This document shows positions 9,194-64,000 of a DNA stretch of 64,000 nucleotides, piece by piece. The stretch is from an uncultured Terracidiphilus sp. (GTDB taxonomy: Bacteria; Acidobacteriota; Terriglobia; Terriglobales; Acidobacteriaceae), in contig CAYOYX010000006.1 in assembly GCA_964408275.1 (NCBI GenBank), positions 7,307-71,306 on the forward strand, in the 5' to 3' direction. The position numbers and the translations under genes were made by a program. Each line of letters starts with the position of its first letter. Position 1 is the first letter of the stretch. The notes beneath the pieces were generated by a model. The model worked only from the letters and a program-made list of their open reading frames with translations. It was not told where the DNA came from and did not search any database.

Positions 9194-9254
9194 TCAGGGG
9201 CTAAAGCCCAGTACATTTGTCACCCTTTGCGGCACGACTGAAGTCGTGCCCTGA
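9194..9254. repeat. Repeat family A copy
   Basis: tcaggggctaaagccc..tttgcggcacgactgaagtcgtgccctga, in a convergent intergenic region. Confidence 0.85.
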
Positions 9255-38563: not shown

Positions 38564-38575
38564 GGAGAGCAGTGT

Positions 38576-41151: not shown

Positions 41152-41176
41152 AATCACAAACAACAGGAGAGAAATT

Positions 41177-42433: not shown

Positions 42434-42480
42434 TTTTTTTGTAAATTCAAAATTTTGCGAAGAACAACAAGGAGTGAGTC

Positions 42481-43563: not shown

Positions 43564-43604
43564 CTGGAATTATTCACGGAGTTATCACTGGAACAGGAGA
43601 AGCT

Positions 43605-44453: not shown

Positions 44454-44478
44454 GCATTTGAAACTCAACCAACAGAAG

Positions 44479-44508
44479 AGGCTGCGTCGAAAGGCGCAGC
44501 CTTTTTTA
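44479..44508 (+). terminator. intrinsic terminator after the hexuronate operon
   Basis: Perfect 8-bp stem aggctgcg / cgcagcct with an 8-nt loop, followed by tttttt. Confidence 0.8.
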
Positions 44509-44524
44509 TTAGTTGCTCTCACAA

Positions 44525-45799
44525 TCAGCGCAAGGAAACCTTCGCGCCCGCCTGCTTCATAATCGCTTCGCCGCTCTCAGCCTGTACGGTCACGTTCTCC
44601 CCGCTCACTTCGGCATAAGCAATCGTCATTCCAGTTTTGGCGCCGATCTTCACATTGCGCAGCGCGACGCCGATGATTGGAGCCTCCGGCAATCCCACAA
44701 TCGCTCCCGCGGAATCGCTTCCCTCCGCCGTAACATTCTCCAGCACAATATCGTGAAAGCGCGGAGTGAGGCGCGTAATCGGTTGCGCGGTTTCTGTTGC
44801 AGGCGGAAGAACCTTGGGATAGTATTCGCTGATAATCAGCGCGTTCTTCACGCCTTTCATTGAAATATCACGAAAGATAAGATGGCTGACATCGTTGCCG
44901 CGATCGCGATTGGCTTTTACGCGAATGCCGTTGTCGGTTCCTTCGAAGTGAATGCGCTCGGCGCGGATATTCCGCGCTCCGCCTGCAATCTCGCTGCCGA
45001 TGGAAAGGCCATGCCCATGCAGAAAAATGCAATCGGTGATGGTGATCTCTTGGCTGGGCGCATCCGGCCCCGGCGAGTTGATTGCCCCCGACTTGATCGC
45101 GACATTATCATCGCCCACGTCCGCAAAAACATGATCGATAATCACGTGCGACGACGAGAAGGGATCGATGGCATCAGTGTTCGGTGAATGCGGTGGCGCA
45201 AGGATCCTGACATTGCGAATCACCACGTCGTCCGAGTAATAAGGAACCAGTTGCCACATCGGCGAATTCTGGATAGTCACTCCCTCAATGCGAATGTGTT
45301 TGCAGTGGTCGAAGACAATCAGCTTGGGCCGCGGATGTTCGGAGCCGAGAATCCCGGAGTTCTTGAAGCTGCGCGCCATCTCCCACCAGCTCTCGCCGTT
45401 GCCGTCGATTACGCCTTCGCCGGTAATGGAGATATTCATCGCGTTGGTTGCGCTCACTAGCGATTGCAATCCCGGCAGACGAAACTCCGTCCACGCTGGG
45501 TAATCCGCGTGATCGGGAGAACCGAGCAGCGTCGCGCCTTTGTCGATTTGCAGCGTGATGTTGCTCTTCAACACGATCGGCGCGCTGAGATACGTTCCCG
45601 CCGTAAGACGAACCGTGCCGCCAACATTTGCGCAACTATCGATGGCTTTCTGAATCGCCGCAGTATCTTTAGTTACGCCGTCTCCCTTGGCGCCGAAGGT
45701 GCGTGGATTACAAATGGCGGGAGTTGCAAAGGCGCTGGCCGAAGCGGCAACAACGACAGACAAACAGAGAAGTTTTACGAACAAACAGCTCTTTCGCAT
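44525..45799 (-). CDS. glycoside hydrolase family 28 (polygalacturonase), secreted
   Basis: GH28 signature blocks NTDAIDP, GDDNVAIKSG, HGHGLSIGSE, GIRVKA. Signal peptide from ATG 45799. Confidence 0.9.
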   Translation of the reverse strand: MRKSCLFVKLLCLSVVVAASASAFATPAICNPRTFGAKGDGVTKDTAAIQKAIDSCANVGGTVRLTAGTYLSAPIVLKSNITLQIDKGATLLGSPDHADYPAWTEFRLPGLQSLVSATNAMNISITGEGVIDGNGESWWEMARSFKNSGILGSEHPRPKLIVFDHCKHIRIEGVTIQNSPMWQLVPYYSDDVVIRNVRILAPPHSPNTDAIDPFSSSHVIIDHVFADVGDDNVAIKSGAINSPGPDAPSQEITITDCIFLHGHGLSIGSEIAGGARNIRAERIHFEGTDNGIRVKANRDRGNDVSHLIFRDISMKGVKNALIISEYYPKVLPPATETAQPITRLTPRFHDIVLENVTAEGSDSAGAIVGLPEAPIIGVALRNVKIGAKTGMTIAYAEVSGENVTVQAESGEAIMKQAGAKVSLR

Positions 45800-45854
45800 T
45801 CCGATATTATTGCACTGCGCCGCCTGCGCTGGCCGAAGCGCGGGCGGAAGTTCT

Positions 45855-46535
45855 CTACCCACGCACGGATACACCGGAGAAGGATAGCACCGCTAATCCG
45901 GGGATGGGCTGGCCGAAGCGGCGGGCCGGCTCAAAGCGGCTCCACAGCAGCAGGTTCTCCACCTGCGCCCGTGTGGCGTCGTCGGTGGGACCGGAGACGA
46001 TGCGATAGTCGTAGACCTGGCCCGCGCCGTTCACGTAGGCCTCGATCACCACCGAGCCGGAGATAGCGTTGATCGGGTCGGCGCCCGCGACGCTGGAGAG
46101 ATAGAGGAAGCGCGGAGCGGTGACCATTCCCAGCGGCTCATCAGCCGTAGCCTGCACCTTCTCCGGTTGAGCAAACATTCCTACCATTACAGCGACCGAG
46201 CCCATTAGCAGCACTGCGGAGACAAAGCCGCCCGCCGCCTGCAACAGGAATGGTCCAACCGTATTTTTCCAGGCCAGATTCCAGGCATGGAAGGGACTCT
46301 GACGGCGCGCCCGCTCATGGCTGATGGCCACGCGAATCCGCAATTGCAGGTCCGCAGGCGCAGGCGCCGGACCCAACGCGGCCAGCGAAGACTGCGCCAG
46401 CTTGAGAGAGTTCCACTCCACAGCGCACTCTTTGCAACCCTCCAGATGGGCGGCGATCTCCTGCATCTCGCGTCCGCTCAGACGGCCATCCAGGTACTCG
46501 GTAAATCTAGTCCGCATTGCATTACAGCCGTTCAT
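45855..46535 (-). CDS. anti-sigma factor (zf-HC2) with single TM and TonB-C-like C-terminal domain
   Basis: N-terminal H..C..C zinc motif (AAHLEGCKECAVEW). Central TM. C-terminus resembles a TonB C-terminal fold. 4-nt overlap with the sigma gene. Confidence 0.7.
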   Translation of the reverse strand: MNGCNAMRTRFTEYLDGRLSGREMQEIAAHLEGCKECAVEWNSLKLAQSSLAALGPAPAPADLQLRIRVAISHERARRQSPFHAWNLAWKNTVGPFLLQAAGGFVSAVLLMGSVAVMVGMFAQPEKVQATADEPLGMVTAPRFLYLSSVAGADPINAISGSVVIEAYVNGAGQVYDYRIVSGPTDDATRAQVENLLLWSRFEPARRFGQPIPGLAVLSFSGVSVRG

Positions 46536-47224
46536 CGCGCCTCCTCTCTCAGGGGCATCTCAAATCCGGCTCTCGCCGGAGAAACATTCTGTTGCGCCGG
46601 AGCCGTCAGAATCGCCTTCAAGGCGGCGCGTCCCCGCACCAGCCGCGATTTGACCGTCCCCAGGTTCACGCCCTCGATCTCCGCTACGTCCTCGTAGATA
46701 AAACCCTCAATGTCGCGCAGGATAAGAGTGGTCCGGAATGGCTCCGGAACCTGCTTCAAAGCCGCCTCAACCCGCGCCCGATTCTCCTCGCGCTCCACTG
46801 TCTCATAGGGCGATTCAGCCGAGTCGACCAGCATCTCTTTCAGCAGCACCGGCTGCCCGCTTTCGCTCTCCACCATCTCCTGCTCGATGGGAATCTCCTG
46901 CTGACGGTGCCGCGCCCACCAGCGGCGCTGGTTGGAGGCCTCGCGCAGCGCGATGCGATAGATCCACGTCCGCAGCGACGACTCGCCATGAAAGCTGCCC
47001 ACTCCGCGGAAGACCTTCACAAAGACCTCCTGCGTGAGGTCAGCGGCATCCGCGCTATCCTGCACGGCGCGCGCAAGCAGCGAGTAAATGGGTTGGTGGT
47101 AGTGCGCGATCAGCCACGCAAACGCCTCCTCCGAGCCAGTCTGCAACTCCGCGATCAGAGCCGACTCCTGGGATTGAAACGTCAACGTGCTGGCAAAATT
47201 GCCCATGGTGAGGTCCGCCTGCAT
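46532..47224 (-). CDS. ECF-type RNA polymerase sigma-70 factor
   Basis: Region 2 (DLTQEVFVKVFRG...SLRTWIYRIA) and region 4 (DVAEIEGVNLGTVKSRLVRGR). Confidence 0.88.
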   Translation of the reverse strand: MQADLTMGNFASTLTFQSQESALIAELQTGSEEAFAWLIAHYHQPIYSLLARAVQDSADAADLTQEVFVKVFRGVGSFHGESSLRTWIYRIALREASNQRRWWARHRQQEIPIEQEMVESESGQPVLLKEMLVDSAESPYETVEREENRARVEAALKQVPEPFRTTLILRDIEGFIYEDVAEIEGVNLGTVKSRLVRGRAALKAILTAPAQQNVSPARAGFEMPLREEAR

Positions 47225-47474: not shown

Positions 47475-48572
47475 TCATGCTTTGTAGCTTCTGCCCTTCC
47501 AGCTTACCTGCTTCAAGATGCGGTGCTGAAACCAACTCCGGTAGAGGAGCACGACAAACAGCGGCAGGCCCATCGGCGAAATGGCGCAATCAAAGAAGGA
47601 AAAGTTGGATTTGATTACGCGGCCGTAGAAGCGGAAGAGGTTGCGAACCCATAAAAGCGCCAGCAGCCATCCATCGTAGACCCAGGGCAGCATATGCGGA
47701 GCGAAAGGCTGATTCCACACCGCGATGGCCAGCAGTGGAAGCACGAAAAGAAGCATAATGTCGAGGGCGCGCCAGAGCGCCAGCGCAAGGCAATTATGGA
47801 AGAGCAGCGCGAGATTCTTGGTCCAGCCTTCGATCATCGCGGCGGTTGAGCGGTACATCCGCGTGGAGAGTGCATCGGCGGCGTAGCGGAAACGCAGGCC
47901 AATGTGACGGCGCTTGGCGAGGTAAGCGAGTTCCACGTCTTCGAGAACCTTTTCAGCGACAGCTGCGTGACCGCCGAGACGGCGATAGGCCTCGCGTTCG
48001 ATAAGCAGAAACTGGCCGTTGGCGGCGGCGATGCGTTGAGCGGGATCGGAGACTTTCGCCGGAGGATAGGCTAGAGCCAGTTCGCAAAATACAAGCGGCA
48101 TCAGCGAACGCTGGGCGAGGCCGCTGACAATCTGGCGTGGCGAATAGCTGAGCACGCCAACTTCATGCTTTGCGGCTTCATGCATTGCGCGGTGGAGATT
48201 TCCCGGCTCGTGAATGGTATCGGCGTCGGTGAAGAGCAGCCAGCGGCCACGCGCCTGTTTCGCAGCGGTCCAAATCGCGTTATTCTTGCCGGTCCAGTTT
48301 GGCTCCAGCTTGCCGGCTTCGAGAACCGTGACTACGACAAAGCTACGAGCGATTTCGGCAGTGCGGTCGGTGGAGTGGTCATCCACAACGATCAACTCCC
48401 AGTCGCGGCCCAGTTGGAAGAGATCGTCGGCTTGGCTGGTCAGGGATTTGAGGCAAGCAGCGAGACAGTCTTGCTCGTTGCGCGCGGGGATGATGACGGT
48501 GAGTTCGAGCAGTTCGGCAGGCTCAGGCTGGTTGAAGACTGTTCCCATATCTTTTATCTCATCACGAATCAA
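47475..48572 (-). CDS. family 2 glycosyltransferase, hopanoid-associated (HpnB/HpnI-like)
   Basis: GT2 motifs VIIPARNE and FTDADT. C-terminal TM helices. Neighbourhood of hpn genes. Confidence 0.75.
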   Translation of the reverse strand: MIRDEIKDMGTVFNQPEPAELLELTVIIPARNEQDCLAACLKSLTSQADDLFQLGRDWELIVVDDHSTDRTAEIARSFVVVTVLEAGKLEPNWTGKNNAIWTAAKQARGRWLLFTDADTIHEPGNLHRAMHEAAKHEVGVLSYSPRQIVSGLAQRSLMPLVFCELALAYPPAKVSDPAQRIAAANGQFLLIEREAYRRLGGHAAVAEKVLEDVELAYLAKRRHIGLRFRYAADALSTRMYRSTAAMIEGWTKNLALLFHNCLALALWRALDIMLLFVLPLLAIAVWNQPFAPHMLPWVYDGWLLALLWVRNLFRFYGRVIKSNFSFFDCAISPMGLPLFVVLLYRSWFQHRILKQVSWKGRSYKA

Positions 48573-54258: not shown

Positions 54259-54380
54259 CACTGGCCGGGTATCTGAACTTTGTATCCCATCGCTTATGAA
54301 TTCCTTGTGGATAGGATGGGATACTAGGGTTAGTGTTTCCCTATGGGATGCTAGAGAGTGTTTCAAAAAACAGCTTTGTG

Positions 54381-54463
54381 TCAGGGCACGACTGGTAACT
54401 CAGGGCTTCAGCCCTGACTGCCGTATGTAATGCAATATCAACGCGAGCTTTAGCCCCTGAGGG
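54381..54463. repeat. Repeat family A copy (long variant, opposite orientation)
   Basis: tcagggcacgact..CAGGGCttcaGCCCTG..gctttagcccctgaggg. Confidence 0.8.
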
Positions 54464-54567: not shown

Positions 54568-55029
54568 ATGGCTCATGCAAGACTTTCGCCGAGACAATAC
54601 ATCATTCTGGGGCTAGTCTCTGTCTGCGCGCCGGTAGGAGACTCCTGCCTTTCGCGCGGCATGGCTCATCTGACGGGAATATCGCTGGCTCATCCCATCA
54701 CACTCGTAGCAGCGGTCTTTACGCCGTGGATCGTGCTGGGCATCGCGTTGCTGATCGGCTTCTTCGCCAGCTACCTGACTGCGCTCTCGTGGGCCGATCT
54801 CACCTTTGTTCTGCCCGCAACAGGCCTGGGCAACGTGGTTGTTGCACTGCTCGCGCGCTTCTGGCTGCACGAACCGATCTCGCTGGCACGCTGGGCGGGG
54901 ATTGTGCTGATTACCGTGGGCGTGGGCTTTGTAACGCAGGGGCCTTCGCTGACAGAAAACACAGCCATTGAAGCGCCATCCCGCGCCGAAGAAATGCGGC
55001 CTGTCCTTGAGAAGGAGCAGGTGCGATGA
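54568..55029 (+). CDS. half-size EamA/DMT-superfamily membrane protein (subunit 1)
   Basis: About 4 TM. EamA-like C-terminal helix (HEPISLARWAGIVLITVGV). Confidence 0.7.
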   Translation: MAHARLSPRQYIILGLVSVCAPVGDSCLSRGMAHLTGISLAHPITLVAAVFTPWIVLGIALLIGFFASYLTALSWADLTFVLPATGLGNVVVALLARFWLHEPISLARWAGIVLITVGVGFVTQGPSLTENTAIEAPSRAEEMRPVLEKEQVR

Positions 55030-55433
55030 CGATTCCCTTCCCTGCCGTGCCATCCGGCCTCTGGGCCGCAGCCGCGATGATCGCCGCCATCGTGCTGGCA
55101 TCAACTGCCGGTGAAGTGTTGACCGCTGCGGCGATGAAGTCCGTTGGCGACCTCGATGAGATTCGCGCTCGCGATGGACTGATGGGCGCGATTCGCGCCG
55201 TCCTCACCTGCCCGCTCTTTTTTGCGGGCGTAGGCTTTCTCGCACTGGCTTTTTTCTCGCTGCTCTTCTCGCTCAATCATCTGCCGGTGAGCCTGGTGGC
55301 TCCGGCTTCGTCCTCGCTGACGTTGGTCACCAACGCCATAGCCGGCAAATTCTTTCTCAAGGAGAATGTGGACCGTCGCCGCTGGACCGCAGCTATCCTG
55401 GTCTGCATTGGGGTTTATCTACTGGCGCATTGA
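55026..55433 (+). CDS. half-size EamA/DMT-superfamily membrane protein (subunit 2)
   Basis: About 4 TM. EamA-like end (KENVDRRRWTAAILVCIGVYLL). ATGA overlap with subunit 1. Confidence 0.7.
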   Translation: MTIPFPAVPSGLWAAAAMIAAIVLASTAGEVLTAAAMKSVGDLDEIRARDGLMGAIRAVLTCPLFFAGVGFLALAFFSLLFSLNHLPVSLVAPASSSLTLVTNAIAGKFFLKENVDRRRWTAAILVCIGVYLLAH

Positions 55434-55626: not shown

Positions 55627-57051
55627 TTATCTAGTTAACACCATCAATCCCTGCGGCTTCAGATCGCGCTCAAAGCACTTGAGAGGTTCTCCGGCTTCCA
55701 TGCCTAGCGCTTCCGCGGCCAGATGACCGGAGCGCGCCGCGCTCTCCATCGTCGATGGCCAGCCGGTCGCTGTCCAGTCTCCAGCCAGAAAAAGCTGTGG
55801 CCATGACGAGACGGCAGACGGCCGCGCGGAATCGATTCCGGGACGCACACCGAAGGTTGCGTGCATTTCTTTGATGAGCGCGACTTTTTCCAGCTTGGCT
55901 TCTTTCACGCGCGGAAAAAACTCGGCAAGCTCGCGGAGCGCAAGTTGAATCGCGGCATCACGCGGCATAGCTGCGAAGGTGCGTGAGGCGCTGATGACTA
56001 ACTCGATGTAATGGCCGCCGCGCCCTTGCAGCTTCGACTGGTTGTACATCCAGTGAATCTCTCGGTCGAGCAGCACGGCGTGTTCGAGGTCGGTTACCTC
56101 GCGGTCAAACCACAGATGGACGCTGCAAAGCGGCCAGTGTTCATGGCGTTCAATCTGGCGCGCCAGCTTTTCCGCGCCCTCTTCAGCGGGCAGATGCGGC
56201 AGCAGTTTTTGCATCGCCTCAAAGGGCAGGGCCAGAATAATGTAGTCGGAAACCAGCTCACTCGTGCGTGTGCAGATCAGCCACTTCGCGGAGGCATCAT
56301 CCCAGGCCGCGCCTTCAACAAAAGTATTCAGCAGCAAACTGCCGCCGCGCTCCGTGATGAACGGCGTAACGCCCGCATACAACTGGCTCAGCGGAACTGT
56401 GCTCATTCCCATGCTGCCCGCCTCGGCGGAGTTCATGAAGAGTTCGCGAATAACTTTGGCGGCGTAGGGAACGGCAATCGAATCGATCTCTGCATTCATG
56501 GCGCTGGCGATAACCAGCCGCCAGAAGCGATTGATTGCGCCGTCGGTCTGCTTGTGCCGCCGCAGCCAATCGCCGAGCGATTCGCGCGTGTCGATCAGCG
56601 CCTCCGGCTTCATCATCGCTCGCATCGCGCGAGCGAGCGAGAGTTTGTCAGCAAGCGTGAAGGCTTTTGCATTCAAAAAACTGGGCGCTCCATGCAGCGG
56701 CGCGGGCAAACGCAGCGGACCAAGTTCGAGGGGACCGAGGCGCGAGCGTCGCCCACCGGGCTCAATCATCGTCATCGCTCTAGTCCAGTGAATGCGATCA
56801 GCGACGCCGATGCGGCGATAGAAGCCGAGGAGATTGGTGCAGCAACCAAAGAGAACGTGCTGGCAGTTGTCGATGACCTCATTGACACCGGGATGCAGGT
56901 AGGAACTGGCGCGTCCGCCGAGGTAGCCCCGCTGCTCAACCAGTTGCACAAGGTACCCGGCCTCAGCGAGAGCGCAGGCCGCGCTCATCCCGGCCACGCC
57001 GGCGCCGATCACCGTGACGGACTTTTGCGAATTGGGCTGCAAATCACTCAT
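55627..57051 (-). CDS. hpnE: hydroxysqualene dehydroxylase (FAD-dependent amine-oxidase fold)
   Basis: VTVIGAGVAGMSAA..E..GGR dinucleotide motif. Adjacent to hpnC and hpnD. Confidence 0.85.
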   Translation of the reverse strand: MSDLQPNSQKSVTVIGAGVAGMSAACALAEAGYLVQLVEQRGYLGGRASSYLHPGVNEVIDNCQHVLFGCCTNLLGFYRRIGVADRIHWTRAMTMIEPGGRRSRLGPLELGPLRLPAPLHGAPSFLNAKAFTLADKLSLARAMRAMMKPEALIDTRESLGDWLRRHKQTDGAINRFWRLVIASAMNAEIDSIAVPYAAKVIRELFMNSAEAGSMGMSTVPLSQLYAGVTPFITERGGSLLLNTFVEGAAWDDASAKWLICTRTSELVSDYIILALPFEAMQKLLPHLPAEEGAEKLARQIERHEHWPLCSVHLWFDREVTDLEHAVLLDREIHWMYNQSKLQGRGGHYIELVISASRTFAAMPRDAAIQLALRELAEFFPRVKEAKLEKVALIKEMHATFGVRPGIDSARPSAVSSWPQLFLAGDWTATGWPSTMESAARSGHLAAEALGMEAGEPLKCFERDLKPQGLMVLTR

Positions 57052-57183: not shown

Positions 57184-57597
57184 TCAATTATCGGCTGATA
57201 CATCTTGCATTTTATTCCGCTTCGACTTGAGATATTCTTTGATCGCAGAAAGCCCACTGGTCAAAAGCCCCCCACCACATACCACAACGAATAATATTTT
57301 GAAAAATACGCCAGCCATCGATTTGTCCGTTGATAATAGGTTCCAGACGTAAAGACCAAAGGACAGAAAATACACTGCGTTTCTAGCCGAGGAATCACGC
57401 TCTTTGCGTCGAACCAAAATTGCCAACACGAAGGCGATCAATAATAAAGAACATATTTCATACTTGTCCGATAAATAAATAAGATGTGTCATTCGCAGAA
57501 TGCCATAGATACAGATCGCTACAGCGGTCAGCAGCACCTTTGATTCCAAACTCAATAATGGTAGCTTCATGGCTTTCCAATTCCTTTCTGCGGACAA
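57184..57597 (-). CDS. hypothetical 4-TM membrane protein, AT-rich
   Basis: Open frame between hpnD and hpnE. Hydrophobic helices. TTG at 57597 or ATG at 57570. Composition is much AT-richer than the operon. Confidence 0.4.
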   Translation of the reverse strand: MSAERNWKAMKLPLLSLESKVLLTAVAICIYGILRMTHLIYLSDKYEICSLLLIAFVLAILVRRKERDSSARNAVYFLSFGLYVWNLLSTDKSMAGVFFKILFVVVCGGGLLTSGLSAIKEYLKSKRNKMQDVSADN

Positions 57598-57614: not shown

Positions 57615-58532
57615 TCAACCTAACAACCGCGCCCAAAACATCTTCGCCATTCCCGCACAGAGAATACTTAGCTTATGAATCATCGGCATACTGGCGCGTC
57701 GTGAGAATACATCATAATCGGCTCTCTCGATGCGCTTGAGCAGCGAGTGATAGATCGTTACCAAAACCCACAGCGCCGGGCGGCTCTCGCGGTCGATCAA
57801 CGGCAGCAGCTTCTCAGCGGATTCATAGTAATTCTCGGCGCGCTGTGCGATGGCCGCCAGCAACGCTCGCTCTTCAGGCGTGGGCGGCGAGCCTTGCGCG
57901 CGATGGAGCAGTGAGTCGAGAGAGACCTTGTGAGTCGCCAAATCTTCAAGCGGTAGATAGACGCGATTGCGCTCCATGTCTTCGTTTACATCGCGCAGAA
58001 TATTGGTGAGCTGGAAGGCGACGCCGGTCTCTTCGGCGAGCTTCTCGGCGCGGGGATCGGTGTAGCCGAAGATGCGAATGCAGACCAGGCCGACGACAGA
58101 AGCGACGAGATAGCAATAGCTATATAGCTCGGCGAAGGCTGCGTAGGTGTCGGGCGCGGCGGATTCAGCCTGATCGAGGTCCATCGTCACGCCTTCGACT
58201 AGCTCATCGAGTAGACTGAGAGGAATGTTGAAGCGCGCGACGGCATCTAGCACGGCGAGGAAGACGGGGTCCGTATCGACGGAGACGGGACCATGACAGA
58301 CTTCGCGCCAGCCGGCCAGCCACGCATTCAAAAGGTGGCGGCGCTCTTCGCGCGAGAGGCTCTCGTCGTCGGCCAGATCGTCGGCCTGGCGCATAAAAGC
58401 ATAGATGGCGCAGATAGCGTTGCGGCGCGACTCCGGCAAGGCGACGAAGGCGTAATAGAAGTTCTTCGCCTCGTGCCGTGCGATCTGGCGGCAAGCAGCG
58501 TAGGCCGCATTCAATTGAGGATCGTGCTTCAT
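57615..58532 (-). CDS. hpnD: presqualene diphosphate synthase
   Basis: Squalene/phytoene synthase fold. FMRQADDLADD and NILRDV..D motifs. The start is set at ATG 58532 (ORF-track TTG 58547 would overlap hpnC by 4 nt). Confidence 0.85.
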   Translation of the reverse strand: MKHDPQLNAAYAACRQIARHEAKNFYYAFVALPESRRNAICAIYAFMRQADDLADDESLSREERRHLLNAWLAGWREVCHGPVSVDTDPVFLAVLDAVARFNIPLSLLDELVEGVTMDLDQAESAAPDTYAAFAELYSYCYLVASVVGLVCIRIFGYTDPRAEKLAEETGVAFQLTNILRDVNEDMERNRVYLPLEDLATHKVSLDSLLHRAQGSPPTPEERALLAAIAQRAENYYESAEKLLPLIDRESRPALWVLVTIYHSLLKRIERADYDVFSRRASMPMIHKLSILCAGMAKMFWARLLG

Positions 58533-58543
58533 GCGGTCTTCCT

Positions 58544-59542
58544 TCAAATCCGCGTCCCGATGCGCAGAAAGGGCAAGAACTTTCCGGTGACGGCGCGAGC
58601 AAGCAGCGCCAGCTTCCTGCTCTTCGAGATTGCGGGGCGCGAGCTGAGAACATCATAGCCTTGCCGCTCGATGGCGCGCAGAATCTCCAGGCCGCCACGG
58701 CTGAAGAGGTCGAGATCGACGGCCAGATCGCGATTGACATTGGCGATCAACGGCAGGCCTTGTTCAAACATCGCCCGCGCATAGTTGACCTCGCAATGCA
58801 TCAGGGCGCGAAACTCCGGAGTAAAAATGCCGTCGGCTATATACTCCTCGGATACGCCATAAAACTGCATATCTTTTTGCGGAAGATAGATTCGGCCTCG
58901 TTTGTAATCTTCGCCCACATCCTGCCAAAAGTTTGCTAGTTGCAGCGCGCTGCAAGTGGCGTCAGAGAATAGAAAGTTCTCTTCGCTCACCTCAGCGCAG
59001 GCGTACAGCACCAGACGGCCGACGGGATTCGCCGAATAGCGGCAGTAATCCAGCACGTCCTCCATCGTCTGGTAGCGCGTCACGGTCTGGTCCTGGCGAA
59101 AGGCAGTAAGCAGATCGGCGAATGGCTCTTTGGGAATGGAGCACTCGCTGATGGTCTCAGCCAGCGCGACAAAAACAGGATGGCGCGCGCGGCCTTCGTA
59201 GCAGGCATCCAATTCTCGCCCCCACAGATCGAGCAGCGCCAAAGCTGCGGCACTGTCGCCCACCTCGTCGCCGAGATCGTCGGAGACGCGACAGTAGGCG
59301 TAGATGGAGTGAAAATGCGGGCGCAGATTTTTGGGCAGAAACCACGAGGCTACATGAAAGTTTTCATAGTGCGACTCGGCCAACTGCCTACACCAGGTCT
59401 GAGCCTCTTCGAGCGACGGCGCAACGTCAGGGATGCGATAGCTTGCAGGCAATGCAGCCCAGCCGCGAGCGAGCAACTCCTCCTGAGAGAACGCCGTACT
59501 ACCGGGTGTCTGATTGACGGAATTCCTTGCTTTCCTTGTCAT
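58544..59542 (-). CDS. hpnC: hydroxysqualene synthase
   Basis: Squalene/phytoene synthase fold. YCRVSDDLGDE and FWQDV..D motifs. The start is set at ATG 59542, with GAGG just upstream. Confidence 0.85.
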   Translation of the reverse strand: MTRKARNSVNQTPGSTAFSQEELLARGWAALPASYRIPDVAPSLEEAQTWCRQLAESHYENFHVASWFLPKNLRPHFHSIYAYCRVSDDLGDEVGDSAAALALLDLWGRELDACYEGRARHPVFVALAETISECSIPKEPFADLLTAFRQDQTVTRYQTMEDVLDYCRYSANPVGRLVLYACAEVSEENFLFSDATCSALQLANFWQDVGEDYKRGRIYLPQKDMQFYGVSEEYIADGIFTPEFRALMHCEVNYARAMFEQGLPLIANVNRDLAVDLDLFSRGGLEILRAIERQGYDVLSSRPAISKSRKLALLARAVTGKFLPFLRIGTRI

Positions 59543-59550
59543 GGCTTGCC

Positions 59551-60603
59551 TCAAGGCACAATGGCGGTCTTGATCTCGTTCGAGCGTTTCATCAGCTTCT
59601 CAAAGACGTGGTTGAGTTCGCTGAGCGGCGCATGGCCGGTGATAAAAGCATCCGCCTGAAAGCGCCCGCCGGCGATCAGATCGAGCGCCTTGCGACAGAT
59701 GGCCGGAGTGTGGTGGAATGTGGCGCGCAGCGTGATATTCGAGTAGTGAATGCGATTGGTATCGAGTTTGATGCTCGTGCCCACGGCGCATCCGCCAAAG
59801 AAGTTGACCGTGCCACCCTTGCGCACCAGTTCAAAGGCTTCTTTCCAGGCCTCGGGCACACCAACGGCCTCGATGGCAATGTCCACGCCGCGATTGTTTT
59901 CCGTAAGCGCGCGGGTTTCGCGAATCGACTTTGTGATGCTGCTGGTCTGCACAACATGAGCCGCGCCAAGTCGCCGCGCAGCTTCGACCTGGCCGTCGTG
60001 CTTGACGATGGCGATCACCTGGCAACCGTAGAGCGCGGCAACGTGCAGAAGCATCAGCCCCAGCGGGCCGCCGCCGATGACGGCCACGGTGTCGCCGGGG
60101 CGCGGGTTCGAGTCCTCAAAACCATGCACGGCGCAGGCCAATGGCTCTGTCAGCGCGGCGTGCTCGATTGGCACATTGTCCGGCACGTGCAAGGTGTTTT
60201 TTTGCACGATGCGCTGCGGAATGCGAATGAATTCGGCGTAGGCGCCGTTATTGAAGAGCAGATTGTCGCAGAGGTTCTCCTGGCCGCGAGCGCAAAAATA
60301 ACACTCGCCGCAAGGGGCGGAGTTGAGGGCTACTACGCGGTCGCCAGATGCAAAGCCCTTGACGCCCTCGCCAGCCTCGACAACGGTTCCAGCCAGTTCG
60401 TGACCGAAGAGAGCCGGAGGCACGATCATGCGCGCATGATAACCGCGGCGAAATACCTTGAGGTCGGTGCCGCAGGTGAGCGCGGCGTTTACGCGCAGAA
60501 CCAGTTCGCCGGGGCCGGCAACGGGAACCGGCACTCGCTCTATGCGAACATCCTCGCGTCCGTGGAGGACCGCGGCATTCATCGTCGTCGCCTTCGGCTC
60601 CAT
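59551..60603 (-). CDS. zinc-dependent medium-chain alcohol/polyol dehydrogenase (paralog 1)
   Basis: Catalytic Zn ligands CGTD and GHE. Structural Zn CGECYFC..C. Rossmann VIGGGPLG. ATG 60603 lies 1 nt after the upstream stop, with an AAGAGGA RBS. Confidence 0.85.
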   Translation of the reverse strand: MEPKATTMNAAVLHGREDVRIERVPVPVAGPGELVLRVNAALTCGTDLKVFRRGYHARMIVPPALFGHELAGTVVEAGEGVKGFASGDRVVALNSAPCGECYFCARGQENLCDNLLFNNGAYAEFIRIPQRIVQKNTLHVPDNVPIEHAALTEPLACAVHGFEDSNPRPGDTVAVIGGGPLGLMLLHVAALYGCQVIAIVKHDGQVEAARRLGAAHVVQTSSITKSIRETRALTENNRGVDIAIEAVGVPEAWKEAFELVRKGGTVNFFGGCAVGTSIKLDTNRIHYSNITLRATFHHTPAICRKALDLIAGGRFQADAFITGHAPLSELNHVFEKLMKRSNEIKTAIVP

Positions 60604-60604
60604 C

Positions 60605-61678
60605 CTATCCTCTTCCCGCTCCATTCGCAGTTTCAATCATAATCTTCATCGAGTCGGCCTTAGGGTGCGACGCAATCTCAATCGCCTGAACCGCCTCTTC
60701 GAGCGGAAAACGATGCGAGATCAATTGCGTCATATCATAGCCGGTGCGATAACCGCCGAGAACCAACTCCTCCACTTCAGGCTGAATCGCCGTTGATGCA
60801 GAGTATGAACCCAACAGCGTCTTTTCGTCCATGCAAACCGCGCCGGGATCGAAGTTCGCTTGCTCGTGCTGGGTCTGCGCAAAGAGCAACACCTTGCCGC
60901 CGGGCCGCGCTGCAGCCATTGCCGTGGGAATCAGCGCCGTGCCGCCAACGGCCAAAATCACCGCATCCGCTCCTCTGCCTTCAGTGGCTGCGAGAACGCG
61001 TTCAACTACGTCCTCTGTGCCTGCCTGAATCGGTTCATGCAGGCCGAACTTCGCGGCGATGGCGTGGCGCTCTGGGTACAAATCCGAGGTCAGGACGCGC
61101 GCTCCGGTGCGGCGCGAGAGCGCAGCCAACATCACACCGATAGGCCCCTGGCCGATGACCAGCACCGTCTCGTCGGCGGCCAGATGGAGCAGTTTTACGG
61201 CCTTGAGCACGGTATTGACCGGCTCGATGAAGGCCGCCTGCTCGAACGGAACGCCATCGGGAATCTGCACCACGCCGCCCATGCCGACGATCCAATCCAT
61301 CACGCGAATGTACTCGGCAAAGCCGCCGCCGGAAGGCTCCATGCCCGCGGTCGCGCCGACTTTCTTGTAGACCGCGCACTGAGCCGGAGTCTGCTTGCGG
61401 CAGTAGTAGCAATGGCCGCAAGGGATGTGATGGAAGACCATTACCCGCTCGCCGACGGCAAAATTCGTTACGCCTTCTCCCGCCTGCACAATGGTTCCGG
61501 CCATCTCGTGGCCAAAGATGCGCGGCGCGGAGTGGGAGCCGGTGTGAATCTTTTTCAGATCAGTCCCGCAGACCCCGCAGGTGGCGATCTTCACCAGCAA
61601 CTCGCCGGGGCCGATAGCGGGCACAGGCACCGTCTCCAGGCGTAGGTCATTCACGCCGCGATAGACCACGGCACGCAT
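60605..61678 (-). CDS. zinc-dependent medium-chain alcohol/polyol dehydrogenase (paralog 2)
   Basis: CGVCGTD, GHEMAG, CGHCYYC..C, VIGQGPIG. The start is set at ATG 61678 (MRAVVYRG). The ORF-track extension to 61912 runs through a repeat element. Confidence 0.85.
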   Translation of the reverse strand: MRAVVYRGVNDLRLETVPVPAIGPGELLVKIATCGVCGTDLKKIHTGSHSAPRIFGHEMAGTIVQAGEGVTNFAVGERVMVFHHIPCGHCYYCRKQTPAQCAVYKKVGATAGMEPSGGGFAEYIRVMDWIVGMGGVVQIPDGVPFEQAAFIEPVNTVLKAVKLLHLAADETVLVIGQGPIGVMLAALSRRTGARVLTSDLYPERHAIAAKFGLHEPIQAGTEDVVERVLAATEGRGADAVILAVGGTALIPTAMAAARPGGKVLLFAQTQHEQANFDPGAVCMDEKTLLGSYSASTAIQPEVEELVLGGYRTGYDMTQLISHRFPLEEAVQAIEIASHPKADSMKIMIETANGAGRG

Positions 61679-61757
61679 CGTTGCGGGGATTGTCTCTGTT
61701 AGCTGCTTTGGAACAGGGCTCGACTCCGAGGGTAACAAATCTTCAATTGGTTTTGTA

Positions 61758-61836
61758 TCAGGGCACGACTGGTAGGTCGGGGTTTCAACCCCGACATGAA
61801 TCGCGTCAACAGAAGCGGGGGCTTTAGCCCCTGAGG
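61758..61836. repeat. Repeat family A copy (long variant, opposite orientation)
   Basis: tcagggcacgact..CGGGGTttcaACCCCG..gctttagcccctgagg. Confidence 0.8.
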
Positions 61837-61886
61837 AATGCTCGTCAGGGAAATAATTCAAATTCCGGCTCTCGTCTGAAACGTGT

Positions 61887-62609
61887 TTACCGATTGTTGT
61901 TTGGGTTTCCATTCAGCTTGTCGGGTTGACCTCGTTCATCCAGCAATTCCAGCAGTGAGACCGCGATGGCGCGGGCGGCCTTTCTACTATTTTCGCCCAT
62001 CCGGATGAGGGCGGGCCACTGCCACGACCTGACGAGCGCAAAAAAGACGAAACGAGTCAGTTGAAAGCTCCCGTCTGCTGATATAAATCGATTGAAATCA
62101 GGGAGTTTGTCCTTGTAGCCATCGCTGATTCCTTTGATGCAATAAAACGGAATGCCGCGCATACGGGCGAGGCGCGCGATAACGGTGGCCTCCATATCTA
62201 CGAGAGCGGCTTCATAAGTGGAGGTAAGGCGCTGCTTCTCGGCTGTATCGGCAACCTTTGAACTTGTAACCAACCAGCAATCATTTCGCGGACCTGCTGT
62301 AACAAACCGCTCGCCAGTCCGCGCATCAATCACACACGAGATATCGTAAGCCTTCCCAGATACAAGCTCCTCGCGCAATGCTCCCGCCCAGCCGGTGGAG
62401 ATGAGCTTGTCGATGGGGCCGAGTTTCTCGACCTCGGCAAAGGCTCGCGTGGCAGCAGAGACGCCGGCTCCGGCGCAAGCGGCAATCCACTCGCCGCCGT
62501 CAAAGCTCCTGCGCCAAAGATCGACGCCGTTCGAGCGCGAACGCAGCCAACCGCGCACGAGCGGCTTCAGTTCAGCGGGCATGGCGGCGATGATGGCGGT
62601 GCGTGTCAT
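61887..62609 (-). CDS. hpnG: hopanoid-associated nucleoside phosphorylase/nucleosidase (HpnG-like)
   Basis: PNP_UDP_1-like fold (AIIAAMPAE..., VDMEA, GISD). hpn cluster context. Confidence 0.7.
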   Translation of the reverse strand: MTRTAIIAAMPAELKPLVRGWLRSRSNGVDLWRRSFDGGEWIAACAGAGVSAATRAFAEVEKLGPIDKLISTGWAGALREELVSGKAYDISCVIDARTGERFVTAGPRNDCWLVTSSKVADTAEKQRLTSTYEAALVDMEATVIARLARMRGIPFYCIKGISDGYKDKLPDFNRFISADGSFQLTRFVFFALVRSWQWPALIRMGENSRKAARAIAVSLLELLDERGQPDKLNGNPNNNR

Positions 62610-62625: not shown

Positions 62626-63021
62626 TCAACAGCCTTTCAAAAGCACAATGTCTTCAACGCGGCCGTCTTTCATCAATACCATCCAATTGCTGTTTCTGAG
62701 CCTCAGCGCTGGCTGCGAGGGGCGGCCTGAAGTCCTATAACAAAATCCGTAATAACCATCATCGGCTTGGCTTAATGGGGTTACGTAGCCGAATTTTTTG
62801 ATCAGCTCGGCCTCGGTTTTCCCCAATACCATGTCCTCACGGTGAGCATCTCCGACCATCGTTTCAAGCGCACTATCCGGGTCCAATGGATAGATACCAT
62901 GTCTCCATCCTATGTACCGCAAATCCTTCTTATCCGCGTCGTGATACAACAACTCCCATACTCCGACTGACAAGATAAGAACAACCACAATCATCACGAG
63001 AAGTTTGACCAGTTTTCGCAT
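62626..63021 (-). CDS. hypothetical N-terminally anchored protein (131 aa), lower GC
   Basis: ATG 63021 with a GGAGA RBS. One N-terminal TM (LVKLLVMIVVVLILSVGVW). No recognised motif. Confidence 0.45.
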   Translation of the reverse strand: MRKLVKLLVMIVVVLILSVGVWELLYHDADKKDLRYIGWRHGIYPLDPDSALETMVGDAHREDMVLGKTEAELIKKFGYVTPLSQADDGYYGFCYRTSGRPSQPALRLRNSNWMVLMKDGRVEDIVLLKGC

Positions 63022-63080
63022 CTTCGTCTCCAAATTTAACCCATAGCAGTATTAGGTCAACGCTTCATTATGTGAATCAA

Positions 63081-64000
63081 TCACTGCGTATACCCGTGCG
63101 CCCGGAACCACTCAATCGCAGCCTTCATTGCGGGATTGACGGGCAGGATGCGGAAGCCTAGCTCCTGCTGGGCGCGGGCGCTCGATGCGTACATCTTTTT
63201 GCGGCCCATGCGCACCTCTTCCAGCGTGGCGCGCGGCTCACGATTGCGGATGCGGCCGGTGATCCACTCTTCAAAGAATGCGTACGTCGCGGCGACGGCG
63301 AAGGGAATCTTGACCGTCGGCGAAGGAAGGCCAGTCAGCGCCGACATCTTGTCGAGAATCTGCTTGAGGGTGAGGTTTTCGCCGCCGAGAATGTAGCGTC
63401 TTCCTGGCTGGCCTTTGCTGAGCGCAGTCGCGTGTGCGCGGGCAACCTCGGCAACGTCTACGAGGTTGAGGCCGGTGTCCATGTAGGCGGGAAATTTGCC
63501 GTTGAGGAAGTCAAGGAAGATGCGGCCCGTCGGCGTGGGCTTCGCGTCGTTCGGGCCGATCGGGCTGGTGGGATTGAGAATGATGACGCTCTGACCGCCT
63601 TGCGCGGCCTTGATGGCTTCCTGCTCGGCGAGGAACTTGGAACGCTTGTAGTGGCCGACCATATCCGCGAGAGTCACAGGCGTCTCTTCGTTGACTACCG
63701 TGCCGTCGCGGAAGAAGTGCATGGTGGCGACGCTCGACGTATAGACGAAGCGCTTGACGCCAGCCTCGCGCGCCATGCGCAGCAACTCGCGCGTCCCGTC
63801 CACATTGGCGCGATACATCGCCTGCGGATCGGGAATCCAGAGACGGTAATCCGCCGCGACGTGGACGACGGCATCGCAGCCAGCAAGCGCGGGCTTGAGC
63901 GATTCGGGATCGGACAAGTCGCCGACGTGCGTCTCTCCGGCAATGCCTTCGAGGTTCGAGAGATTGCTCGTCTTGCGAACGAGCAGGCGCAGTTTGGCGC
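63081..64000 (-). CDS. hpnA: hopanoid-associated NAD-dependent sugar epimerase/reductase (HpnA-like), N-terminus beyond window end
   Basis: Extended SDR: GDLSDPESL..GCDAVVHVAA, YKRSK catalytic motif. The reading frame stays open to position 64000. Confidence 0.8.
   Translation of the reverse strand, partial: AKLRLLVRKTSNLSNLEGIAGETHVGDLSDPESLKPALAGCDAVVHVAADYRLWIPDPQAMYRANVDGTRELLRMAREAGVKRFVYTSSVATMHFFRDGTVVNEETPVTLADMVGHYKRSKFLAEQEAIKAAQGGQSVIILNPTSPIGPNDAKPTPTGRIFLDFLNGKFPAYMDTGLNLVDVAEVARAHATALSKGQPGRRYILGGENLTLKQILDKMSALTGLPSPTVKIPFAVAATYAFFEEWITGRIRNREPRATLEEVRMGRKKMYASSARAQQELGFRILPVNPAMKAAIEWFRAHGYTQ

What the first reader, a model, noticed from the sequence alone, without database searches (positions are those of the whole stretch)
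59551..61678. Two tandem Zn-dependent polyol/alcohol dehydrogenases between hpnG and hpnC; candidates for the unassigned ribosylhopane-to-bacteriohopanetetrol reductase
Both proteins have complete MDR signatures: catalytic Cys/His-Glu, a structural 4-Cys zinc site and a GxGxxG Rossmann motif. Their sequence (sorbitol/threonine-dehydrogenase-like) fits sugar-alcohol chemistry. They are the middle of a co-directional chain hpnA-orf-hpnG-adh2-adh1-hpnC-hpnD. adh1 starts 1 nt after the adh2 stop, and hpnC starts 8 nt after the adh1 stop. In the established C35 side-chain pathway, HpnH makes adenosylhopane and HpnG removes adenine to give (phospho)ribosylhopane. To my knowledge, the reduction of the ring-opened ribosyl aldehyde to bacteriohopanetetrol has no assigned enzyme. 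An NAD(P)H-dependent polyol dehydrogenase encoded immediately after hpnG is exactly the activity required. The second paralog could act on a different oxidation state, or in the aminotriol/cyclitol branch.
Basis: inference. Interest (0 to 1): 0.7.

Follow-up and report, generated by a model that had tools for sequence, protein, structure and literature searches.

The report
Dehydrogenase pair in hopanoid gene cluster
Two intact zinc-dependent dehydrogenase genes sit inside an acidobacterial hopanoid-lipid gene cluster; they are an old gene pair, already noted in the literature, with no known function, and because their most widely conserved neighbours are the squalene-synthase genes, a role as the missing enzyme that makes bacteriohopanetetrol is possible but not favoured.

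Summary
Window 59551-61912 (minus strand) encodes two complete Zn-dependent medium-chain dehydrogenases (MDRs) between an hpnG-like gene and hpnC, in a Terracidiphilus-like acidobacterium. They are not recent paralogues (32% identity). They belong to two ancient orthologous clades, A2 (adh2) and A1 (adh1).

The pair matches the description and position of 'ug1' and 'ug2', cluster-associated genes of unestablished function in Sinninghe Damsté et al. 2017 (PMC5462960).

- **Linkage.** In 160 related loci, A2→A1 adjacency and A1→hpnC/hpnD adjacency recur in several phyla (Acidobacteriota, Armatimonadota, Gemmatimonadota, unassigned lineages). hpnG→A2 adjacency is confined to class Terriglobia.
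- **Wider distribution.** A1 also stands alone in Verrucomicrobiota. The pair occurs in a Vicinamibacteria MAG, a class whose cultured strains lack hopanoid cyclase. ug2 is reported absent from Chloracidobacterium, which makes bacteriohopanetetrol (BHT).
- **Cofactors.** A2 has an NAD-type signature and A1 an NADP-type signature, which suggests an oxidise-then-reduce couple.

I give it about 0.17. A redox couple tied to the squalene module is more likely (about 0.42). adh2's native start is probably 61912, with a 177-nt repeat element inserted in frame.

The parts
59551..60603 (-). adh1, a member of clade A1 (matches 'ug2' of PMC5462960). It is a Zn-dependent MDR of 350 aa with an NADP(H)-type cofactor signature (V200-K201-H202).
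   Evidence: Orthologues give 268-364 bits across phyla, against 105-170 bits to clade A2.
60605..61678 (-). adh2 conserved core, a member of clade A2 (matches 'ug1'). It is a Zn-dependent MDR of 357 aa with an NAD(H)-type signature (D199).
61679..61912 (-). Probable N-terminal extension of adh2. The ATG at 61912 (METQTT) is homologous to the MATQ start of relatives and overlaps the hpnG 3' end by 26 nt. The ORF stays open down to the core.
61717..61893 (-). A 177-nt in-frame insertion that four close relatives lack. It is a copy of a dispersed two-hairpin repeat (GGGGCTAAAGCCC ... AGTCGTGCCCTGATACAAA).
   Evidence: No Rfam family matches it.
61887..62609 (-). hpnG-like nucleosidase/phosphorylase (PNP_UDP_1), 240 aa.
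   Evidence: TIGR03468 scores 92 bits, below its cut-off of 187.
62626..63033 (-). orf135, a small ORF between hpnA and hpnG. It matches no family and has no counterpart in 160 related loci.
63081..64000 (-). hpnA (SDR 'hopanoid-associated sugar epimerase'). The gene runs off the window end.
   Evidence: (TIGR03466, 395 bits).
58544..59542 (-). hpnC (hydroxysqualene synthase). It starts 8 nt after the adh1 stop.
   Evidence: (TIGR03464, 352 bits).
57615..58547 (-). hpnD (presqualene diphosphate synthase). Its longest ORF overlaps the end of hpnC.
   Evidence: TIGR03465 scores 237 bits, below its curated cut-off of 279.
55627..57051 (-). hpnE (hydroxysqualene dehydroxylase).
   Evidence: TIGR03467, 430 bits.

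Best explanation
adh2 and adh1 match the two cluster-associated genes called 'ug1' and 'ug2' in acidobacterial hopanoid clusters. They form an ancient, co-inherited gene pair (A2 then A1) of catalytically intact Zn-dependent MDRs.

**Shown here**
- The two clades are distinct, and each keeps all zinc and Rossmann residues across 105 (A2) and 163 (A1) orthologues.
- The order A2→A1 and the adjacency A1→hpnC/hpnD recur in several phyla.
- hpnG→A2 adjacency is limited to Terriglobia.

**Inferred from sequence**
- A2 is NAD(H)-dependent because it has an invariant acidic residue at the end of beta-2.
- A1 is NADP(H)-dependent because it has V/G/A followed by K/R and R at the positions of A199-R200 in the NADP(H) ketose reductase.
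- Where sorbitol dehydrogenase and ketose reductase have F-R-Y, residues I recall as polyol-binding, A1 has F-H-H and A2 has S-Y-S, so both pockets are polar.

**Inferred mechanism**
The two enzymes work as an oxidise/reduce couple. A2 removes a hydride from a CH-OH group to NAD+, and A1 delivers a hydride from NADPH to a carbonyl. The net result would be an inversion or isomerisation, or an aldose→polyol→ketose conversion, on a polar, polyol-like group. The logic resembles IolG/IolW or xylose reductase/xylitol dehydrogenase.

The genomic coupling places this step with the squalene (HpnC/HpnD/HpnE) module of isoprenoid-lipid synthesis rather than specifically with HpnG. In Terriglobia that module has been joined to the ispH-shc-hpnH-hpnA-hpnG block to form one hopanoid supercluster. 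The actual substrate is not identified.
For: **Family and residues**
- MDR domains and residues. They are conserved across orthologues.
- Two clades: within-clade scores across phyla are 250-365 bits, against 105-170 bits between clades. The NJ tree shows A1 monophyletic.

**Pair outside Acidobacteria**
- Armatimonadota MAG: aminotransferase-A2-A1-orf-hpnC-hpnD-hpnE.
- Unassigned contig: A2-A1-hpnC-hpnD with overlapping genes.
- The pair alone in marine and other contigs.

**Counts over 160 loci**
- 122 of 151 scorable loci have hpnC/hpnD within 1.5 kb downstream of A1.
- 115 of 142 scorable loci have A2 upstream of A1.

**A1 with squalene genes but without A2 or hpnG**
- Gemmatimonadota L011: a four-gene unit bounded by unrelated genes.
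- Granulicella, Edaphobacter and Tunturibacter (L015, L045, L058, L086, L087).
- L096: an SQS_PSY gene lies immediately upstream of A1.
- L135, L142, L168: the ispH-shc-hpnA-hpnG block is inverted and A2 stays with A1-hpnCDE.
- Silvibacterium bohemicum keeps hpnA-hpnG-A2-A1 with only one SQS_PSY gene.

**Other**
- Cofactor signatures.
- In the window, adh2-adh1-hpnC are spaced by 1 and 8 nt.
- Rough estimate (inference): a genome has about 1-3 SQS_PSY genes among thousands of genes. Chance adjacency in five or more deep lineages is therefore very unlikely.
Against: - No substrate is known. HpnC, HpnD and HpnE alone are reported to suffice for squalene synthesis (Pan 2015, as cited in PMC7306690), so the squalene module has no obvious missing alcohol/carbonyl step.
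- The polar, polyol-dehydrogenase-like pocket fits a sugar-like substrate better than squalene intermediates.
- A1 stands alone among housekeeping genes in Verrucomicrobiota, with no conserved neighbour. The pair lies next to proline dehydrogenase or a threonine-aldolase-like gene in other lineages. Both contexts fit general metabolism equally well.
- Locus counts are phylogenetically redundant because most loci are Terriglobia. Block transfer of A1-hpnCDE between phyla could mimic independent conservation.
- Cofactor preference is predicted, not measured.
Confidence: 0.42

Rival explanations
1. One reading: one of the two enzymes reduces the open-chain aldehyde of ribosylhopane, the product of HpnG, to bacteriohopanetetrol. 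adh1/A1 is the better candidate because it is the NADP(H)-type enzyme. The other enzyme would act on a different oxidation state of the C35 side chain, for example lactol to ribonolactone or an epimerisation.
For: - The step has no assigned enzyme in papers from 2025-2026.
- In Terriglobia the chain hpnA-hpnG-A2-A1 is contiguous in 78 of 158 loci. It is tightly packed, with hpnG/A2 overlapping by 26 nt or separated by 14-16 nt.
- PMC5462960 describes hpnA-hpnG-ug1 as a separate recurrent cluster.
- The enzymes belong to the polyol-dehydrogenase family and have polar pocket residues.
- A1's NADP(H) signature would fit an NADPH-dependent cell-free activity (from memory of Bodlenner 2015; paper not read here).
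Against: - hpnG-A2 adjacency was found only in Terriglobia.
- Orthologues sit with hpnCDE alone, or entirely alone, in Armatimonadota, Gemmatimonadota, Verrucomicrobiota, a Vicinamibacteria MAG and aquatic lineages.
- Cultured subdivision-6 Acidobacteria lack shc, hpnH and hpnG.
- C. thermophilum makes BHT and BHT cyclitol ether but is reported to lack ug2.
- From my own knowledge, the hpn clusters of BHT-producing Proteobacteria and Streptomyces contain no MDR.
- One reduction needs one enzyme, not a conserved NAD/NADP pair.
- This MDR branch usually acts on secondary alcohols and ketones.
Confidence: 0.17
2. The pair is an ordinary soluble polyol, sugar(-phosphate) or amino-alcohol dehydrogenase couple of general metabolism. 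Its place beside hpn genes would be inherited gene order, or co-regulation for cofactor or precursor supply, with no lipid substrate involved.
For: - A1 is free-standing among housekeeping genes (TsaB/TsaE/ThiL) in Pedosphaera and other Verrucomicrobiota, with no conserved neighbour.
- The pair lies next to proline dehydrogenase (Vicinamibacteria) and a threonine-aldolase-like gene (Armatimonadota).
- A cyanobacterial A2-like gene stands alone.
- A distant A2 relative is fused to a sugar-phosphate nucleotidyltransferase domain (P0156).
- The best sequence matches are threonine, sorbitol, inosose and galactitol-phosphate dehydrogenases.
Against: - Direct adjacency of A1 to SQS_PSY genes, often with overlap, recurs in at least five deep lineages and several arrangements.
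- No score reaches any curated NCBIfam cut-off, so the genes are not recognisable orthologues of any characterised enzyme.
Confidence: 0.25
3. The pair tailors squalene-derived C30 carotenoids (oxidation or reduction of terminal hydroxyl or aldehyde groups) rather than hopanoids.
For: The phyla carrying A1 (Acidobacteriota, Verrucomicrobiota, Armatimonadota) overlap with those reported to have CrtN and the squalene route to C30 carotenoids via HpnCDE (PMC9907078). In Armatimonadota the pair sits with hpnCDE.
Against: - No crtN/crtP-like second amine oxidase lies next to the pair in the loci I inspected.
- In Terriglobia the pair is embedded among shc, hpnH and hpnG.
- Planctomycetes, the model group for this route, did not appear among the best hits.
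- The pocket residues are polar.
Confidence: 0.08

Closest known systems
'ug1' and 'ug2' of acidobacterial hopanoid gene clusters (Sinninghe Damsté et al. 2017, PMC5462960)
   Same: These appear to be the same genes. ug1 is a Zn-dependent ADH of about 370 aa that follows hpnG. ug2 is a Zn-binding ADH of about 350 aa that precedes hpnC. In Terracidiphilus gabretensis all the clusters are concatenated, as they are here. I matched them by description and position, not by sequence.
   Different: That paper gave no function ('not established') and proposed HpnA for the ribosylhopane-to-BHT step. It did not report that the two genes form a phylum-spanning pair, that A1 tracks hpnC/hpnD outside Acidobacteria, or the NAD/NADP dichotomy.
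L-threonine 3-dehydrogenase (Pyrococcus horikoshii 2d8a/2dfv; TIGR00692, NF003808)
   Same: It is the best characterised sequence relative (E 3e-43 for adh1, 2e-32 for adh2). It shares the fold, the catalytic Cys/His/Glu/Glu and the structural Cys4 lobe.
   Different: Scores are 148-174 bits against cut-offs of 380-458. adh1 has V200 where TDH has the NAD-binding Glu. No kbl partner gene is present.
NADP(H)-dependent ketose reductase (1e3j) and sorbitol/xylitol dehydrogenases (1pl6, 7y9p)
   Same: They belong to the same polyol-dehydrogenase branch. adh1 V200-K201 aligns with ketose reductase A199-R200, which I recall as the NADP determinants. adh2 D199 aligns with the Asp of NAD-type enzymes.
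   Different: Identity is about 30%. The F-R-Y triad of sorbitol dehydrogenase and ketose reductase is F-H-H in A1 and S-Y-S in A2. JGI's label 'L-iditol 2-dehydrogenase' is an automatic annotation only.
Two-enzyme NAD+/NADPH redox couples (IolG/IolW for myo- to scyllo-inositol; xylose reductase/xylitol dehydrogenase)
   Same: They provide a working analogy: one NAD+-type oxidising enzyme and one NADPH-type reducing enzyme acting in sequence on a polyol (my own knowledge).
   Different: IolG and IolW are Gfo/Idh/MocA enzymes and xylose reductase is an aldo-keto reductase, so they are not homologous to this pair. The analogy rests on predicted cofactor use only.
4ej6/4ejm putative zinc-binding dehydrogenase (Sinorhizobium)
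   Same: It is the best solved-structure match for adh1 (E 5e-45) and the second best for adh2.
   Different: It is itself uncharacterised, so it says nothing about substrate.

Membership tests
Zn-dependent medium-chain dehydrogenase/reductase (MDR) superfamily | GroES-like ADH_N domain plus a Rossmann ADH_zinc_N domain | tested here: met
   adh1: 6.7e-25 and 2.5e-24. adh2: 7.6e-27 and 1.3e-18.
Zn-dependent medium-chain dehydrogenase/reductase (MDR) superfamily | Catalytic zinc ligands (Cys, His-Glu, Glu), a structural Cys4 lobe and a GxGxxG motif | tested here: met
   One search gives the positions. They are conserved in 163 A1 and 105 A2 orthologues.
L-threonine 3-dehydrogenase (TIGR00692 / NF003808) | Score above the curated equivalog cut-off | tested here: not met
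   Scores are 174 and 167 bits (adh1) and 149 and 157 bits (adh2), against cut-offs of 458 and 380.
Sorbitol / L-iditol 2-dehydrogenase | Conserved polyol-binding residues (the F-R-Y triad of SDH/KR) and close sequence similarity | tested here: not met
   A1 has F-H-H. A2 has S-Y-S at the aligned positions. PDB SDH matches have E-values of only 6e-33 and 3e-26, at about 30% identity.
scyllo-inosose 3-dehydrogenase IolM (NF041097) and galactitol-1-phosphate dehydrogenase GatD (NF007642) | Score above the curated cut-off | tested here: not met
   IolM: 164 and 154 bits against 450. GatD: 99 and 127 bits against 550.
Hopanoid biosynthesis (hpn) pathway genes | Conserved linkage to hpn genes across hopanoid producers of different phyla | tested here: inconclusive
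   Linkage to hpnC/hpnD is seen in several phyla. Linkage to hpnG, hpnA, hpnH and shc is seen only in Terriglobia. Orthologues also occur without any hpn neighbour.
Hopanoid biosynthesis (hpn) pathway genes | Loss-of-function or in-vitro evidence for a hopanoid substrate | not testable with these tools
   No genetic or biochemical data were found in the literature searches.
Ribosylhopane reductase (activity defined by Bodlenner 2015; no gene known) | NADPH-dependent reduction of ribosylhopane to BHT, with the gene present in all BHT producers | tested here: inconclusive
   An NADP(H)-type signature is present in A1 only. ug2 is reported absent from BHT-producing C. thermophilum. No orthologue from Proteobacteria or Cyanobacteria appeared among the best 160 loci, but the listings were capped at 80 of more than 600 hits per scan.

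The most novel reading that the evidence does not exclude
The A2/A1 pair, or A1 alone, is an unrecognised enzymatic component of bacterial HpnD/HpnC-type squalene synthesis that spans several phyla. It could be an NADPH-dependent step that lets lineages lacking hpnC and/or hpnE still make squalene. Examples of such lineages are Silvibacterium bohemicum and the L048/L123/L130 clade; Verrucomicrobia are reported to keep only hpnD. If so, the pair would not be a hopanoid side-chain enzyme. This reading would address a puzzle raised in PMC5462960 and PMC9907078, namely squalene producers that have only hpnD.
Probability: 0.15. Interest if true: 0.8.

Novelty: new member of a known kind. Interest (0 to 1): 0.45.

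Why it matters
Hopanoids are major bacterial membrane lipids and geological biomarkers, and the enzyme that turns ribosylhopane into bacteriohopanetetrol has been missing since 2015. These two genes are among the few cluster-encoded oxidoreductases of unknown function, so they are natural candidates. The comparison made here narrows what a wet-lab test should look for. The pair behaves as one unit, has opposite predicted cofactor preferences, and follows the squalene-synthase genes across phyla. Knock-outs should therefore be scored for squalene and hydroxysqualene as well as for ribosylhopane and BHT. If the pair proves to belong to squalene synthesis, it could explain how bacteria with only hpnD make squalene. 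If it reduces ribosylhopane, it would fill a gap in the C35 pathway, at least for Acidobacteria.

Tried and rejected
1. **Assignment to a characterised enzyme.** No NCBIfam equivalog reaches its cut-off. The best PDB matches are generic or uncharacterised.
2. **Rosetta-stone fusion.** The 602-aa relative P0156 turned out to be NTP_transferase plus an A2-like MDR, not HpnG plus MDR. It is only a weak hint towards sugar-phosphate chemistry.
3. **Conserved neighbours of free-standing A1.** I clustered the flanking ORFs of 37 loci (Verrucomicrobiota and aquatic lineages) and found none. Pfam hits on the few recurrent neighbours (TsaB-like, peptidase S10) were uninformative.
4. **Cofactor preference from the first six-sequence alignment.** It looked variable. 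Column counts over 163 sequences showed a consistent NADP-type pattern.
5. **My earlier reading that hpnG and adh2 are loosely linked (208-nt spacer with hairpins).** I rejected it. The spacer is a repeat-element insertion, and relatives have overlapping genes.
6. **A phosphatase between hpnG and A2.** In the subclade with a roughly 700-nt gap, the inserted gene is a small protein with a hydrophobic, signal-peptide-like N-terminus and no informative similarity.
7. **Locating A2 in genomes where A1-hpnCDE stands apart (Granulicella group).** The profile search returned only closer genera. I rely on PMC5462960 for the hpnA-hpnG-ug1 cluster.
8. **Papers not held.** Liu 2014 and Pan 2015 could not be fetched. 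What I say about Bodlenner 2015 beyond its title comes from memory.
9. **Rfam search of the insertion.** No credible match.
10. **Structure prediction.** Not run, because it would only re-confirm the MDR fold.
Full report
**What is in the window**

On the minus strand the order is hpnA (63081 to beyond 64000), orf135, an hpnG-like gene (61887-62609), adh2, adh1, hpnC, hpnD, orf137 and hpnE. hpnJ and two half-size EamA genes lie on the plus strand. Close homologues are named Terracidiphilus sp..

Both ADHs have ADH_N and ADH_zinc_N domains. The key residues are as follows.

| Protein | Catalytic zinc | Structural zinc | Rossmann motif |
|---|---|---|---|
| adh1 | C44, H68-E69, E153 | C98, C101, C104, C112 | G177-GGPLG |
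| adh2 | C37, H57-E58, E152 | C87, C90, C93, C101 | G176-QGPIG |

The adh2 stop and the adh1 ATG are 1 nt apart. The adh1 stop and the hpnC ATG are 8 nt apart.

**Family placement**

No curated NCBIfam model reaches its cut-off. The best are threonine dehydrogenase (174 and 157 bits against 458 and 380), IolM and GatD. The best solved structures are an uncharacterised Sinorhizobium enzyme (4ej6), archaeal threonine dehydrogenase, the NADP(H) ketose reductase, and sorbitol and xylitol dehydrogenases, with E-values from 1e-45 to 1e-30. Both proteins belong to the polyol/threonine-dehydrogenase branch of the MDRs, but to no characterised subfamily.

**Two ancient clades, not a duplication**

adh1 and adh2 are 32% identical. 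A search of 1.84 billion cluster representatives with adh2 found only about a dozen full-length clusters above 250 bits, at 39-48% identity.

I looked up the contigs of those relatives:
- An Armatimonadota MAG has [threonine-aldolase-like]-A2-A1-orf-hpnC-hpnD-hpnE.
- An unassigned contig has A2-A1-hpnC-hpnD with overlapping genes.
- A marine scaffold and two other contigs have the pair alone.
- A cyanobacterial contig has a single A2-like gene.

All-against-all BLAST separates clade A2 (adh2-like) from clade A1 (adh1-like). Within a clade, scores across phyla are 250-365 bits. Between clades they are 105-170 bits. The order is always A2 then A1.

**Linkage survey**

I scanned one genome per GTDB species and the JGI metagenomes with A1-clade alignments. 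Each scan gave more than 600 hits, of which the best 80 were kept. I labelled the flanks by tblastn with the window's Hpn proteins. Counts come from 158 loci with a complete A1.

| Context | Loci |
|---|---|
| hpnG upstream, then A2-A1-hpnC/D | 74 |
| A2-A1-hpnC/D (hpnG not detected upstream, or flank too short) | 32 |
| A1-hpnC/D, no A2 upstream | 7 |
| A1-hpnC/D, upstream flank too short to score | 9 |
| A1 alone | 18 |

These counts are dominated by Terriglobia. The informative result is the pattern by lineage:
- **A2-A1 adjacency:** Terriglobia, Armatimonadota, a Vicinamibacteria MAG (L029) and four unassigned lineages.
- **A1 next to an SQS_PSY gene:** Terriglobia, Gemmatimonadota (L011), Armatimonadota (L004, L010), L007, L110, a clade with hpnD only (L048, L123, L130), and L096. 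In L011 the four-gene unit is bounded by unrelated genes, and in L096 the SQS_PSY gene lies immediately upstream.
- **hpnG-A2 adjacency:** Terriglobia only.

Three further arrangements bear on this:
- In L135, L142 and L168 the ispH-shc-hpnA-hpnG block is inverted and A2 stays with A1-hpnCDE.
- In Granulicella, Edaphobacter and Tunturibacter, A1-hpnCDE stands without A2.
- About 15 Verrucomicrobiota loci, and Pedosphaera parvula, carry A1 alone among housekeeping genes with no conserved neighbour.

**Literature**

The association is already published. Sinninghe Damsté et al. 2017 list ug1 (Zn-dependent ADH, about 370 aa, after hpnG) and ug2 (Zn-binding ADH, about 350 aa, before hpnC) as 'not established'. 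They note that in Terracidiphilus gabretensis all the clusters are concatenated, and they proposed HpnA for the ribosylhopane-to-BHT step. I matched adh2 to ug1 and adh1 to ug2 by description and position, not by sequence.

The same paper reports three relevant facts:
- ug2 is absent from Chloracidobacterium thermophilum, which makes BHT and BHT cyclitol ether.
- Luteitalea (subdivision 6) has hpnCDE but no shc.
- S. bohemicum lacks hpnC and hpnE. I confirmed its locus as hpnA-hpnG-A2-A1 followed by one SQS_PSY gene.

Papers from 2025 and 2026 still describe the ribosylhopane-to-BHT enzyme as not established, or the step as presumed non-enzymatic, so the open question is real. Santana-Molina et al. 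report HpnCDE and SHC in Verrucomicrobia and CrtN with HpnCDE in Armatimonadetes. They also report that Rubritalea makes squalene with only hpnD.

**Cofactor signatures**

At the end of beta-2, A2 has Asp in 101 and Glu in 4 of 105 sequences. This position aligns with the Asp of NAD-type enzymes and with Gly198 of NADP-type alcohol dehydrogenases.

A1 has V, G or A in 158 of 163 sequences, followed by K or R in 148 and R in 123. These positions align with A199-R200 of the NADP(H) ketose reductase and with the NAD-binding Glu of threonine dehydrogenase.

The pair therefore looks like one NAD+-type and one NADPH-type enzyme. The simplest reading is an oxidise-then-reduce couple. Where sorbitol dehydrogenase and ketose reductase have F-R-Y, A1 has F-H-H and A2 has S-Y-S, which points to a polar substrate group. 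All of this is inference from sequence.

**Weighing the readings**

The ribosylhopane reductase idea fits the Terriglobia operon, the enzyme family and A1's NADP signature. Against it, orthologues that keep all conserved residues occur where no C35 pathway is evident, a BHT producer is reported to lack ug2, and the only cross-phylum partner is hpnC/hpnD.

I therefore place the pair with the squalene module as a redox couple of unknown substrate (0.42).

The most novel reading still open is that A1 supplies a missing step for squalene formation in lineages that lack hpnC or hpnE (0.15).

**Boundary of adh2**

Relatives have a conserved 19-aa N-terminal tail whose ATG overlaps hpnG by 26 nt. The window has the same ATG at 61912. 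It is followed by a 177-nt in-frame insertion (61717-61893) that is absent from four close relatives.

The insertion is a copy of a dispersed two-hairpin repeat. Other copies lie at window 3479-3537, 9197-9253 and about 54375-54462, and in three related loci. It has no Rfam match. Whether adh2 is translated from 61912, from a TTG at 61738 or from 61678 is unknown.

**Limits**

- Both scans were capped at 80 loci ranked by similarity, so absence from other phyla is weak evidence.
- MAG labels can be wrong; L057, L067 and L030 look mis-binned.
- The tree is neighbour-joining only.
- No whole-genome co-occurrence could be computed.

Noticed in passing
window 61717-61893; also 3479-3537, 9197-9253, about 54375-54462; L075 2205-2263, L076 13051-13107, L150 1051-1109: A dispersed two-hairpin repeat element with core GGGGCTAAAGCCC...GGCACGACTGAAGTCGTGCCCTGATACAAA occurs in Terriglobales genomes. 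The other copies I checked against genes appear to be intergenic. One 177-nt copy is inserted in frame at the hpnG/adh2 overlap of this genome only. No Rfam family matches it.
   Followed up: partly
L001 4025-5122 and 5368-6507: In a close relative, two tandem radical-SAM + DUF3463 (HpnH-like) genes follow shc, so there is a second HpnH paralogue inside the hopanoid cluster.
   Followed up: no
window 54568-55029 and 55026-55433 (+); also L170 16023-16870 and L171 17521-18335: Two overlapping half-size EamA/SMR-like membrane genes give weak ArnE/EbrA-like hits. They sit next to hpnJ here and in Silvibacterium and Alloacidobacterium. They fit the description of 'ug5' (transporter, about 140 aa) in PMC5462960 and could be a small heterodimeric lipid flippase.
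   Followed up: partly
window 62626-63033 (-) and 57184-57597 (-): orf135 (between hpnA and hpnG) and orf137 (between hpnD and hpnE; hydrophobic, in a stretch of lower GC) match no family and have no counterpart in 160 related loci. They are genome-specific insertions or spurious ORFs.
   Followed up: partly
window 61887-62609 (-): The hpnG-like gene scores only 92 bits against TIGR03468 (cut-off 187), so acidobacterial HpnG is a divergent member of the family. Related loci scored 50-300 bits against the window protein.
   Followed up: no
window 47475-48572 (-), with 46532-47224 and 45855-46535: A GT2 glycosyltransferase resembles HpnB (150 bits, cut-off 379) and the carotenoid glycosyltransferase CruG (100 bits). 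An ECF sigma factor and anti-sigma factor pair lies beside it.
   Followed up: no
L170 5425-7928 (Silvibacterium bohemicum): A myo-inositol-1-phosphate synthase gene and a radical-SAM/SPASM gene lie directly upstream of hpnA-hpnG-A2-A1. I did not see this in the other loci inspected.
   Followed up: no
protein P0156 (602 aa, from the representative search): A fusion of an N-terminal sugar-phosphate nucleotidyltransferase domain (PF00483) with an A2-like MDR (37% identity). It recalls the cytidylyltransferase plus pentulose-phosphate reductase systems of the TarI/TarJ type.
   Followed up: partly
window 37172-45874: A hexuronate/pectin utilisation block (UxaC, MFS transporter, LarA-like, UxaE, PfkB kinase, GH28) lies upstream of the hopanoid region and is unrelated to the finding.
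   Followed up: no
L061 8281-8862; L163 4344-4841: In one Terriglobales subclade a small gene (about 165-193 aa), whose product has a hydrophobic, signal-peptide-like N-terminus, is inserted between hpnG and A2.
   Followed up: partly
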